A stretch of 64,000 bases of DNA from Escherichia coli O127:H6 str. E2348/69 (GCF_000026545.1 NC_011601.1), one strand, 5' to 3'; numbered from the stretch's first letter, positions 55,901 through 58,900 are shown. Made by a program: the numbers.

Positions 55901-58900
55901 CTGCATTATTCCATTCGCCAAATTTTCCTGGAACTTCATCATAAATACCGAGTGAAAGAACAAAGATCAGACGTTTAATATCACAGGCTTTCATCGCAGC
56001 GATCACTGAATTTGCCTGAATATCTAAATCTTCCCCCGTAAGGTTGGCATACACAACATCCTGTCCCTGCATGGCCTGCTTAAGTGCTGCATGATTCAGT
56101 ACATCCCCCATAATAATCTTGCTATTAGTTGGATAGGGTTTGTGGATTTTTGCTGGCTGACGGGCAAATAAAGTTTGTTTAATGGTTTGTTTATCTGCCA
56201 GTTGATTAATCACATGGCGGGCTATCTGACCGCCAGCACCAAGAATCAGTACATTTTTCATGAAACTTTTCCCAGATTATTGGCAGCAATATGCCTGGCC
56301 ATATCACTATTACGGATTTGAATATGTTTCATTACAGAGTTTCCTCAAAGAACGGAGCTAATACTGAAATTGCTTCAGCCACATAGACTTTGCCGTCATA
56401 AAGATCCATATGGTTTGCGCCTTCAACAATGTGATAGCGTTTATCCTGGCTTGATGCTCGATCGTACAGGTCGTCACTCATCCATTTGCTCCCAGCCTGG
56501 CTGCCCGCCACAATCTGTATCGGCTGAGTCAGGTACACTTCCGCCATATGGTAAGCATCATAGGTAATAATCTGGTTAAGGCTGCGCAAAGTAGCGTAAC
56601 CCGGTGCTGTTGGATACTGCGCGCGAGGGGTGTGGTAATACTCCCAGGCCTGACGCAGTTCTTCGTTCGGCGCATCGGACTCCTTCATTGGTGCCAGTGG
56701 CATAGTGGCGTATTCTCCGCTGCTAATATCGCTGGTTCGGGCGTTTGAACCCGCGTCAACGTATGGTAGGGCATCAATAGATTTCACATTGTTTTCCCAA
56801 CCATTACGGAACATCGAACCAATATTGACCGCACTAACAGTACCGATGGCCTTGATGCGGCGATCCTGAATTGCAGCATTGGCTGTATATCCTGCACCGG
56901 CACAAATTCCCATCGCACCAATTCGGGTATTGTCGACATAAGAAAGCGTTGTCAGGTAATCAATCACGGCACTGACGTCTTCAGTACGAATGTATGGGTT
57001 TTCTAACTGACGCGGCTCGCCGCCGCTTTCACCTTGATAAGATGCGTCATAAGCAATAGTGACAAATCCCTTTTCCGCCAGTTTTTCGGCATAGGTTCCG
57101 GCCGTTTGCTCTTTAACGCCCCCACCTGGGTGAGATACCACAATTGCCGGATACTGACGGGTTTCATCAAATTTTGGAGGGAAATAGATCACTGCAGACA
57201 AAGAGATGGTTGGATTATTGCTGTTAGTGAAGCTGACTTTATTATTCATCATTCCGTTCCTCATGGAGTTGTCGGTTCGTTTTAACGGTTGGTGATATCA
57301 CTATAGATATTGATCATTAAGTTGATTAGACCCAAAATCATGATTAGACCTATCATTTAAATGATTAATAGATTGTATGGAGATACTGAATGAAGCGTGA
57401 AGAAATCGCTGATCTGATGGCGTTTGTCGTTGTTGCAGAGGAGCGTAGCTTCACTCGCGCAGCAGCCCGCCTGAGCATGGCGCAGTCAGCTTTAAGCCAG
57501 ATAGTGCGCCGTATAGAAGAACGATTGGGATTGCGGCTTCTGACGCGAACCACGCGCAGCGTTGTACCCACTGAAGCGGGCGAGCATCTTTTGTCTGTTC
57601 TTGGCCCTATGTTGCATGACATAGATTCTGCCCTGACATCCCTGAGCGATCTGCAGAACCGCCCATCCGGGACAATACGTATTACTACTGTAGAACATGC
57701 AGCAAAAACGATATTGTTACCAGCTATGCGCACATTCCTGAAATCGCATCCTGAAATTGATATTCAGCTTACCATTGATTATGGTTTGACCGATGTCGTT
57801 TCTGAACGTTTTGATGCAGGCGTCCGTCTGGGTGGGGAGATGGATAAAGATATGATCGCCATTCGAATCGGGCCAGACATACCAATGGCTATTGTTGGCT
57901 CACCGGATTATTTTTCTCGCCGAAGTGCTCCAACGTCAGTGTCACAATTAATAGATCATCAGGCAATTAATTTGTATCTTCCCACATCGGGTACAGCAAA
58001 TCGCTGGAGATTAATACGCGGTGGACGTGAAGTTCGTGTTCGCATGGAAGGTCAGCTTTTACTGAATACGATAGACCTGATCATTGATGCTGCAATTGAT
58101 GGGCATGGATTGGCGTATCTACCTTATGATCAGGTTGAGCGGGCTATTAAAGAAAAAAAACTGATACGTGTTTTGGATAAATTCACACCAGATTTACCCG
58201 GTTATCACCTGTACTATCCACACCGTCGACATGCTGGCTCGGCATTCTCATTATTTATAGATAGGCTGAAGTATAAAGGTGCTGTTTAGCACTACTTGCT
58301 GATACATTAATTTAATTCTTCTCTTAACGTATTCTCAGTTCCTTTCAACGTTTTGGTTATTTTTTATTCTTCGCACAATGGCGACAGATGCTGATTATGA
58401 TACCGAAAACGGGTTTGAATGTGCGAAGCCCGAACGTAGTGTTCGGAGTTCTATGTGCTTTACCGCATTTTGGAGACTATTATTTACACTAAATCTGATT
58501 TGATATATTGATACTTAAAACATTTGATGCTTCCTTTGTCACTTTTTTGATGGAAGTTGTTTGCATTTCTTTAAAGCGAAACAAATAATTACGCATCAAT
58601 TTTAATGTCGGTTAGAGGGAAACTTATGAAGCACTCTGTTTCAGTCACGTGTTGTGCGCTGTTGGTCAGCAGCATTTCTCTTTCGTATGCTGCTGAAGTT
58701 CCGAGCGGCACAGTACTGGCAGAGAAGCAGGAGCTGGTGCGCCACATTAAAGATGAGCCAGCGTCGCTGGATCCCGCTAAAGCCGTGGGCCTGCCGGAGA
58801 TTCAGGTCATTCGCGATCTGTTTGAAGGACTGGTGAATCAGAACGAGAAAGGGGAGATTGTCCCCGGCGTTGCGACTCAGTGGAAAAGTAATGACAACCG

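What the first reader, a model, noticed from the sequence alone, without database searches (positions are those of the whole stretch)
57253..57389. Repeat-rich ycjY–pgrR divergent intergenic region: candidate PgrR operator
The 137-bp spacer contains a direct repeat TGATTAGACC at 57323..57332 and 57341..57350 and a perfect 12-bp palindrome TCATTTAAATGA at 57353..57364, just upstream of the pgrR start. LysR-type regulators typically bind T-N11-A-containing dyads in their own divergent promoters.
Basis: inference. Interest (0 to 1): 0.25.

Follow-up and report, generated by a model that had tools for sequence, protein, structure and literature searches.

The report
Known PgrR operator in ycjY–pgrR spacer
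The repeats and palindrome between ycjY and pgrR are real and form the conserved binding region of the LysR-type regulator PgrR, overlapping two back-to-back promoters; binding of PgrR to this spacer and its self-repression are already published, so the finding is correct but ordinary.

Summary
TGATTAGACC occurs at 57323-32 and 57341-50. The palindrome is 14 bp, not 12: ATCATTTAAATGAT at 57352-65. Shuffles rarely give both features (0.0007).

The window is E. coli, and the spacer matches K-12 at all but one base. Published data already place PgrR here: a genomic SELEX peak, a DAP-seq enrichment of 5632-fold at its own promoter, and negative autoregulation.

Comparative analysis adds base-level detail. 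A 70-bp core (57300-57369) is 81-93% identical across genera whose four-fold codon sites are saturated. It aligns without gaps to three plasmid copies from Alphaproteobacteria.

Invariant parts are TAG, ATT, GATTAG, TATCA and TGAT. The centre of the palindrome varies. The element is therefore a dyad, ATCA-N6-TGAT (T-N10-A, not T-N11-A), plus a second dyad, ATTA-N6-WAAT, at 57325-38.

The geometry fits a classical LysR operator. I infer the recognition site at about -65 and the activation site at about -38 of a predicted ycjY promoter. The recognition site also covers -10/+1 of the pgrR promoter.

Side finding: SDR-ycjY-pgrR is a 3.1-kb mobile cassette, absent from 173 E. coli genomes.

Verdict: already known; low interest.

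The parts
57253..57389 (.). ycjY<>pgrR divergent intergenic spacer (137 bp, 34% G+C)
   Evidence: Annotation of a 100%-identical genome. Single copy, present in 5222 of 5426 complete E. coli genomes.
57300..57369 (.). Conserved 70-bp core: operator plus both core promoters
   Evidence: It is 81-93% identical to 9 orthologous loci from other genera. In the same loci, four-fold sites of pgrR are 31-41% identical and the adjacent 57370-89 is 15-30% identical.
57352..57365 (.). Proposed recognition site (RBS): dyad ATCA-N6-TGAT, here the perfect 14-bp palindrome ATCATTTAAATGAT
   Evidence: The arms TATCA/TGAT are invariant in 13 of 13 cassettes, including 4 alphaproteobacterial plasmids, while the central 6 bp vary (TTGAGA, CTGAGG, CTGGAG).
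57325..57338 (.). Proposed activation-site (ABS) dyad: ATTA-N6-AAAT, a perfect ATTA-N6-TAAT in the alphaproteobacterial copies
   Evidence: GATTAG (57324-29) and AT (57337-38) are invariant in 12 of 13 sequences stacked in a gap-free register. It has the same 14-bp geometry as the RBS. Its role as ABS is inferred.
57323..57332 (+). Direct repeat copy 1, TGATTAGACC; it contains the invariant GATTAG and the pgrR -35
57341..57350 (+). Direct repeat copy 2, TGATTAGACC; it is TGATTGGACT in most other genera, and only G57347 and C57349 are invariant
   Evidence: The 18-bp spacing to copy 1 is kept in the alphaproteobacterial copies.
57313..57326 (.). Second exact ATCA-N6-TGAT dyad (ATCATTAAGTTGAT); its left arm is not conserved outside a few enteric loci
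   Evidence: The left arm is ATTA, ACCA or TCAA in other genera and is absent in alphas.
57327..57356 (+). Predicted pgrR sigma-70 promoter, TAGACC-18-TATCAT; inferred start near 57363
   Evidence: Consensus scan. The same hexamers were predicted by Shimada et al. 2014 (PMC3946193). TAGAC and TATCA are conserved across classes. There is no experimental start site.
57300..57305 (-). Predicted ycjY -10, TATAGT (plus strand ACTATA); inferred start near 57293
   Evidence: ACTATAG is invariant in 11 of 11 gammaproteobacterial loci although it is outside any dyad. A -10-like hexamer sits in the same register (within 1 bp) in all 4 alpha plasmids: TAGATT, TAGATT, TACCAT, TATATT (by reading). The -35 is weak (TAATCA, 3 of 6). 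This is inferred.
57379..57383 (+). pgrR Shine-Dalgarno GGAGA, 6 nt before the ATG
   Evidence: Sequence. The surrounding 57370-89 is not conserved.
57390..58289 (+). pgrR (ycjZ), LysR-type regulator, 299 aa
56332..57252 (-). ycjY, alpha/beta hydrolase; the divergent target gene

Best explanation
The spacer is the operator of the LysR-type regulator PgrR, interleaved with the two back-to-back promoters it controls. A PgrR oligomer (by family analogy a tetramer, two DNA-binding dimers) binds the strong dyad ATCA-N6-TGAT at 57352-65 as its recognition site. It binds a second, weaker dyad around GATTAG (ATTA-N6-AAAT, 57325-38) as its activation site. The recognition site lies over -10/+1 of the pgrR promoter (TAGACC-18-TATCAT), so occupancy blocks RNA polymerase and gives negative autoregulation. 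The second site lies over the overlapping -35 regions of both promoters. Without a ligand, this also holds down the weak-(-35) ycjY promoter. By analogy with other LysR regulators, an unknown ligand would shift the distal dimer, possibly to the second TGATTRGAC copy, and relieve repression or activate ycjY. Shown: the sequence features, their conservation, and (from the literature) binding to this spacer and autorepression. Inferred: which bases are contacted, both start sites, oligomeric state, and any ligand-dependent switch.
For: (1) Published in vitro binding at region level. There is a genomic SELEX peak at ycjY/ycjZ (PMC5934670). DAP-seq fold enrichment at the pgrR promoter is 5632, above lacI/lacZYA at 4413 (PMC10505187 Supplementary Data 6). 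(2) Published function. pgrR knock-down raises pgrR promoter activity (log2 0.97, significant in glucose), confirmed with a tunable-TF strain. The ycjY promoter moves the same way (log2 0.60, 0.28, 0.34), but not significantly. (3) The K-12 spacer equals the window except at base 57376. (4) Phylogenetic footprint. The 70-bp core is 81-93% identical where four-fold sites are 31-41% and the next 20 bp are 15-30% identical. (5) The site travels with the regulator. The same core lies beside pgrR orthologues in other genomic contexts: a conjugative Klebsiella plasmid and Rhizobium, Agrobacterium and Kozakia plasmids (PgrR 69-74% identical). For these alpha plasmids, 30-35 of 61 bases match in a gap-free register, against 9-22 for shifted registers. 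(6) Dyad signature. The arms are invariant and the centre is free. Exact ATCA-N6-TGAT arises in 5 of 1000 shuffles of the spacer. (7) Geometry. With the predicted ycjY -10 (57305-00), the dyad centres fall at -65.5 and -38.5, the textbook LysR RBS and ABS positions. (8) RNA polymerase holoenzyme SELEX peaks fall in this spacer.
Against: The primary paper (Shimada et al. 2013, Genes Cells 18:123) could not be read. I therefore do not know whether its footprint or motif matches the bases proposed here. No experimental start site was found, so the -65/-38 geometry rests on predicted -10 elements. Shimada et al. 2014 predicted a different ycjY promoter, ATGATA-19-TCTAAT. The dyad is T-N10-A, not the canonical T-N11-A. 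The two dyad centres are 27 bp apart, which is not an integral number of helical turns. Part of the conservation (TATCA, TAGAC, TATAG) could reflect promoter hexamers rather than protein contacts. No ATCA-N6-TGAT match with one mismatch or none lies upstream of the other reported regulon members ycjG and ycjX. The effect on ycjY in PPTP-seq was small.
Confidence: 0.8

Rival explanations
1. The conserved core is only two overlapping promoters (hexamers, UP-like A/T tracts) and the TGAT/ATCA words are a by-product. PgrR contacts other bases in the spacer.
For: TATCAT, TAGACC and TATAGT are promoter-like hexamers. RpoD, RpoH and RpoE holoenzymes all give SELEX peaks here.
Against: Promoter hexamers do not need 70 bp of near-invariance. 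They also do not explain the invariant TGAT arm at 57362-65, which lies downstream of the -10, or the symmetric arms with a free centre. The ycjY -35 overlapping GATTAG is a poor -35 (3 of 6) yet is invariant. No other part of the spacer is conserved enough to be the site.
Confidence: 0.08
2. The palindrome and repeats are the site of a different, host-encoded regulator (FNR-, ArcA-, Fur-, IHF- or CRP-like).
For: The sequence is A/T-rich with partial resemblance to several consensus sequences: FNR 8 of 10, Fur 13 of 19, ArcA 11 of 16, IHF 8 of 9.
Against: Each of these best matches is reached by 8-96% of composition-matched shuffles. The core is conserved next to pgrR on plasmids of Alpha- and Gammaproteobacteria. 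There the only factor that always accompanies it is PgrR. DAP-seq with PgrR alone gives a 5632-fold peak.
Confidence: 0.04
3. The repeats are relics of a mobile element (terminal inverted repeats or a MITE), in keeping with the mobility of the cassette.
For: The SDR-ycjY-pgrR segment is an indel in E. coli and is flanked by integrases and IS elements on plasmids. There is a 19-nt imperfect inverted repeat, 57308-26 / 57352-70.
Against: The repeats lie in the middle of the cassette between the two divergent genes, not at its ends. The spacer is single copy (median 1 place per genome). The cassette boundaries are elsewhere (55421-57 and 58532-68).
Confidence: 0.02
4. Chance features of an A/T-rich spacer.
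For: The spacer is 34% G+C, and short repeats are commoner in such sequence.
Against: Joint probability is 0.0007 in shuffles. The features are strongly conserved across classes.
Confidence: 0.01

Closest known systems
PgrR (YcjZ) binding region at the ycjY/ycjZ spacer of E. coli K-12 (Shimada, Yamazaki & Ishihama 2013, Genes Cells 18:123; curated in RegulonDB and EcoCyc)
   Same: Same locus and same sequence, one base different outside the core. Same regulator. Repression of ycjY-ymjDC-mpaA and binding at the spacer are reported.
   Different: Nothing differs at the level of the claim. What I add is base-level anatomy from comparative data: a dyad ATCA-N6-TGAT, a second dyad around GATTAG, and the register with both promoters. 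I could not read the 2013 paper, so part of this may already be in it.
Classical LysR-type divergent operators with RBS at about -65 and ABS at about -35 (e.g. BenM/CatM ATAC-N7-GTAT sites, CbnR, OccR, AtzR; from my own knowledge of the family)
   Same: A divergent regulator gene. A strong dyad plus a weaker promoter-proximal site. A conserved stretch of 50-70 bp. The recognition site overlaps the regulator's own promoter and gives autorepression. The target -35 is weak.
   Different: The dyad spans 14 bp (4-N6-4, T-N10-A) instead of 15 bp (T-N11-A). The two dyad centres are 27 bp apart rather than about 21 or 31. PgrR is described as a repressor, and no inducer is known.
AphB (3szp/3t1b) and CrgA (3hhg), the closest named solved homologues of PgrR
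   Same: Full-length LysR regulators, E about 1e-30 over the whole protein.
   Different: They are only distant relatives. Their operators (from memory) are different sequences. They give no information on the PgrR half-site.

Membership tests
LysR-type regulator operator (RBS + ABS) in a divergent promoter | An adjacent, divergently transcribed LysR-family gene | tested here: met
   pgrR has HTH_1 (1.6e-21) and LysR_substrate (1.5e-35) domains. It is divergent from ycjY across 137 bp.
LysR-type regulator operator (RBS + ABS) in a divergent promoter | An interrupted dyad-symmetric recognition site whose arms, not centre, are conserved | tested here: met
   In ATCA-N6-TGAT the arms are invariant in 13 of 13 cassettes and the centre varies. 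The exact match is rare in shuffles (5 of 1000).
LysR-type regulator operator (RBS + ABS) in a divergent promoter | The literal T-N11-A LTTR box | tested here: not met
   The best T-N11-A candidate has only 4 of 8 symmetric pairs. The strong dyad is even-centred, T-N10-A.
LysR-type regulator operator (RBS + ABS) in a divergent promoter | RBS near -65 and ABS near -35 of the regulated promoter | tested here: inconclusive
   The centres fall at -65.5 and -38.5 if the ycjY -10 is TATAGT (57305-00). That -10 is conserved in register, but no experimental start site was found, and a different promoter has been predicted.
LysR-type regulator operator (RBS + ABS) in a divergent promoter | An extended (50-70 bp) constrained or protected region | tested here: met
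   The 70-bp core is 81-93% identical against saturated four-fold sites and aligns without gaps across two proteobacterial classes.
LysR-type regulator operator (RBS + ABS) in a divergent promoter | Physical binding by the cognate regulator | not testable with these tools
   Literature only, at region level: a genomic SELEX peak and 5632-fold DAP-seq enrichment.
LysR-type regulator operator (RBS + ABS) in a divergent promoter | Negative autoregulation | not testable with these tools
   Literature: PPTP-seq and a tunable-TF strain show higher pgrR promoter activity at low PgrR.
LysR-type regulator operator (RBS + ABS) in a divergent promoter | The site is co-inherited with the regulator in different genomic contexts | tested here: met
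   The same core lies next to pgrR orthologues on Klebsiella, Rhizobium, Agrobacterium and Kozakia plasmids and in other genera that lack mpaA/mppA nearby.
Sigma-E-dependent promoter | GGAACTT-N15-17-TCTRA consensus | tested here: not met
   The best match is 8 of 12 and is reached by 965 of 1000 shuffles. A paper nevertheless reports a strong RpoE holoenzyme SELEX peak here.
Dispersed repeat / mobile-element terminus | Multiple copies per genome, or a position at element ends | tested here: not met
   Median of one place per genome. The site lies centrally within the cassette.
Cis-regulatory RNA (Rfam) | A match to a curated covariance model | tested here: not met
   No hit at E of 1 or below in 56900-57800.

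The most novel reading that the evidence does not exclude
The operator belongs to a self-contained, horizontally mobile cassette: pgrR divergent from ycjY, one or two alpha/beta hydrolases, and an SDR. The cassette occurs on plasmids from Klebsiella to Rhizobium. In E. coli it sits as a 3.1-kb indel between mpaA and mppA. PgrR would then be essentially a local, ligand-responsive regulator of the hydrolase cassette. Its label 'peptidoglycan recycling regulator' would largely be a positional by-product of where the cassette sits, through read-through into mpaA and neighbouring mppA.
Probability: 0.4. Interest if true: 0.35.

Novelty: already known. Interest (0 to 1): 0.15.

Why it matters
It matters little for the main claim: that PgrR binds its own divergent promoter and represses itself is already published and curated. 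The comparative work gives a concrete, testable base-level operator model: ATCA-N6-TGAT plus a GATTAG-centred dyad, in fixed register with both promoters. It also shows that the true conserved regulon is the adjacent hydrolase cassette, not the murein-peptide genes. That could redirect the search for PgrR's ligand and for YcjY's substrate.

Tried and rejected
- **Primary paper:** Shimada 2013 is not held, by DOI or by PubMed id. Reviews and database papers that cite it give no motif.
- **Experimental start sites:** Thomason 2015 is not held. The SMRT-Cappable-seq and Cappable-seq supplements had no hit for the genes or coordinates. The Rend-seq paper has no supplement held.
- **Rfam:** no RNA family matches.
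- **Motif at other reported PgrR targets in the window:** none with one mismatch or fewer in the ycjW/ycjX, tpx/ycjG and mpaA-upstream spacers. The only hit is GTCACTTTTTTGAT upstream of mppA, with one mismatch. TGATTRGAC is not enriched in the window (15 matches against 23 expected).
- **Global-regulator and sigma-E consensus matches:** none above chance.
- **T-N11-A reading of the palindrome:** rejected.
- **My first model:** 57313-26 as the conserved distal site. I dropped it because its left arm is not conserved outside a few enteric loci.
- **A 58%-identical orthologue (L009):** it has no ATCA-N6-TGAT but a different 14-bp palindrome, TTGTTAATTAACAA, and a slightly different recognition helix. 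This suggests co-variation, but n = 1.
- **Protein database search:** the top 120 hits were all 87% identical or more, so it gave no intermediate orthologues. Those came from the plasmid collection instead.

Full report
**Observation.** The window is E. coli. A 901-bp stretch around the finding is 100% identical to strain FDAARGOS_536 and occurs in 5226 of 5426 complete genomes. The annotation gives ycjY (alpha/beta hydrolase, minus strand, start at 57252) and pgrR (LysR family, plus strand, start at 57390). TGATTAGACC is at 57323-32 and 57341-50. The palindrome is really 14 bp, ATCATTTAAATGAT, at 57352-65. In 20,000 dinucleotide-preserving shuffles of the spacer, a 10-bp direct repeat appears in 1.3% and a 14-bp palindrome in 1.4%. 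A 10-bp repeat together with a palindrome of 12 bp or more appears in 0.07%. There is a second exact ATCA-N6-TGAT at 57313-26; the window has 6 exact matches against 1.28 expected, two of them here. There are also 9 TGAT/ATCA tetramers within 79 bp (p about 1e-4).

**What is already published.** The K-12 spacer differs from the window at one base (57376), outside all features, so K-12 data apply.
- Genomic SELEX with purified PgrR (YcjZ) gave a peak at ycjY/ycjZ. RegulonDB lists ycjY-ymjDC-mpaA, ycjG and ycjXF-tyrR as its regulon (PMC5934670; PMC4797297, PMC6094552 and PMC5210515).
- Han et al. 2023 (PMC10505187) found that pgrR knock-down raises pgrR promoter activity (log2 0.97 in glucose). 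[quoted passage not shown]
- Their Supplementary Data 6 lists a DAP-seq fold enrichment of 5632 for PgrR at its own promoter. That is higher than LacI at lacZYA (4413). Other PgrR peaks listed there are about 16.
- The ycjY promoter rose only log2 0.60, 0.28 and 0.34, none significant.
- RNA polymerase holoenzyme SELEX peaks (RpoD, RpoH, RpoE) also fall in this spacer. One paper predicts pgrR TAGACC-18-TATCAT and ycjY ATGATA-19-TCTAAT.
- The 2013 primary paper is not in the library. I cannot say which bases it assigned.

**Phylogenetic footprint.** A scan of one genome per species found ten loci with ycjY<>pgrR divergent, nine of them outside Escherichia. They come from Citrobacter, Kluyvera, Serratia, Shimwellia, Pseudocitrobacter and MAGs, with PgrR 85-88% identical. 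Against E. coli, four-fold degenerate sites of pgrR are 31-41% identical, that is, saturated. The 20 bp before the pgrR ATG (57370-89) are 15-30% identical, and the ycjY-proximal spacer (57253-99) is 49-74% identical. Yet 57300-57369 is 81-93% identical. The 70-bp core is therefore under strong constraint.

The plasmid collection supplied deeper comparisons. There is a conjugative Klebsiella aerogenes plasmid (88%) and plasmids of Rhizobium tropici (74%), Agrobacterium fabrum (72%), Kozakia baliensis (69%) and A. pusense (61%). All carry the same hydrolase<>LysR arrangement. I anchored the sequences on the promoter-proximal dyad and stacked them without gaps. The three 69-74% plasmids then match E. 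coli at 30-35 of the 61 upstream bases, against 9-22 for any shifted register.

Invariant in 12 of 13 sequences are TAG 57304-06, ATT 57316-18, GATTAG 57324-29, AT 57337-38, G57347, C57349, TATCA 57351-55, T57357 and TGAT 57362-65. The centre of the palindrome is not conserved: TTTAAA in enterics, TTGAGA, CTGAGG or CTGGAG in the alphas. The functional unit is thus the dyad ATCA-N6-TGAT.

A second 14-bp dyad of the same geometry surrounds GATTAG. It reads ATTA-N6-AAAT in enterics and a perfect ATTA-N6-TAAT in the alphas (57325-38). The 18-bp spacing of the two ATTAG-like repeats is also kept. The exact 10/10 direct repeat of the finding is an Escherichia peculiarity; most others have TGATTGGACT as copy 2.

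**Anatomy and mechanism (inferred).**
- *pgrR promoter.* The pgrR promoter TAGACC (57327-32)-18-TATCAT (57351-56) is found by the scan, predicted independently and conserved. It implies a start near 57363, so the strong dyad covers -11 to +3.
- *ycjY -10.* For ycjY, the block ACTATAG (57300-06) is invariant yet belongs to no dyad. On the minus strand it reads TATAGT, and a -10-like hexamer occupies the same register within 1 bp in all four alpha plasmids. This implies a start near 57293.
- *ycjY -35.* The matching -35 is weak (TAATCA) and lies inside GATTAG.
- *Geometry.* On this reading the strong dyad is centred at -65.5 and the GATTAG dyad at -38.5 of ycjY. These are the classical recognition-site and activation-site positions of LysR-type regulators.
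- *Predicted outcome.* Occupancy would shut the pgrR promoter, which matches the shown autorepression. It would also occlude the ycjY -35, which matches the reported repression. A ligand-induced shift of the distal dimer, perhaps towards the second TGATTRGAC copy, could then activate ycjY.

**Weak points.** No experimental start site was found. The dyad is T-N10-A, not T-N11-A. The dyad centres are 27 bp apart. Some conservation may be due to promoter hexamers.

**Rivals.** No Rfam family matches. The spacer is single copy, so it is not a dispersed repeat. The best matches to FNR, ArcA, Fur, IHF, CRP and sigma-E consensus sequences are all reached by 8-96% of shuffles. Exact ATCA-N6-TGAT is reached by 0.5%. 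Because the core accompanies pgrR on plasmids of two proteobacterial classes, the only trans factor always present is PgrR itself. A 58%-identical orthologue has a different 14-bp palindrome (TTGTTAATTAACAA) and a slightly different recognition helix. That fits co-variation, but it is a single case.

**Context noticed on the way.** A 37-nt direct repeat (84% identical) at 55421-57 and 58532-68 brackets SDR-ycjY-pgrR. I built a synthetic junction that deletes the 3111 bp between the copies. It aligns in one piece at 98.5-99.4% in 173 E. coli genomes, including IAI39 and CE10, where mpaA and mppA are directly divergent. Outside Escherichia the cassette has no mpaA or mppA nearby. On plasmids it is flanked by integrases and IS elements. 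Nucleotide homology to the Klebsiella plasmid cassette ends at the pgrR stop codon and about 70 nt past the SDR stop. E. coli lacks the second hydrolase. A 12-bp-stem hairpin (55578-55604, minus strand, z = -3.0) follows the SDR gene and might limit read-through into mpaA. Together with the dominance of the self-promoter DAP-seq peak, this suggests that PgrR is primarily the local regulator of a mobile hydrolase cassette.

**Verdict.** The claim is already known at region level. The added value is a base-level operator model and the cassette context. Interest is low.

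Noticed in passing
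window 55421-55457 and 58532-58568 (segment 55458-58568): A 37-nt direct repeat (84% identical) brackets SDR-ycjY-pgrR. In 173 complete E. coli genomes (e.g. IAI39, CE10) the 3111-bp segment is absent and mpaA and mppA are directly divergent with a single hybrid copy of the repeat. The pgrR cassette is therefore an indel within the murein-tripeptide locus.
   Followed up: yes
L017 3352-6900; L018-L021 around 1400-4394: The cassette [SDR]-hydrolase-hydrolase<>LysR (PgrR 61-88% identical) sits on a conjugative Klebsiella plasmid and on Rhizobium, Agrobacterium and Kozakia plasmids next to integrases and IS elements. This implies horizontal transfer between Gamma- and Alphaproteobacteria. E. coli lacks the second hydrolase.
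   Followed up: partly
window 55578-55604 (minus strand): A 12-bp-stem hairpin begins 19 nt after the SDR stop codon and is followed by UUUAUUAAACUUAUU (MFE -17.2 kcal/mol, z = -2.98). It may be a terminator that would partly insulate mpaA from the ycjY promoter. The simple terminator scan did not call it.
   Followed up: partly
window 55623-56261 versus K-12 L015 4681-4934: The 212-aa NAD(P)H-binding SDR gene is intact in this strain. In K-12 it is represented only by the small fragments ymjC and ymjD.
   Followed up: no
window about 57321 (K-12 U00096.2 position 1389946): A paper reports a strong RpoE holoenzyme SELEX peak (17.2) and an RpoH peak (4.4) in this spacer and calls pgrR and ycjY RpoE-dependent. 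No sigma-E consensus promoter is detectable (best 8 of 12, reached by 96% of shuffles).
   Followed up: partly
L004 5108-5992 and L012 5064-5948: Two of the related loci carry a second PgrR paralogue (46-48% identical) within 2 kb. Upstream of the L004 paralogue is AAATGATTCATCATTT, built from the same half-site words as the PgrR dyad but in everted order.
   Followed up: no
window 57312-57315: A GATC (Dam) site lies inside TGATCA, in the left arm of the 57313-26 dyad. It is present in only some of the orthologous spacers.
   Followed up: no
window 5567-5592 and 14761-14778: These are the longest perfect palindromes in the window: 26 bp AAAGCCACGGATATATCCGTGGCTTT and 18 bp TGAGAATGATCATTCTCA. 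They were not examined.
   Followed up: no
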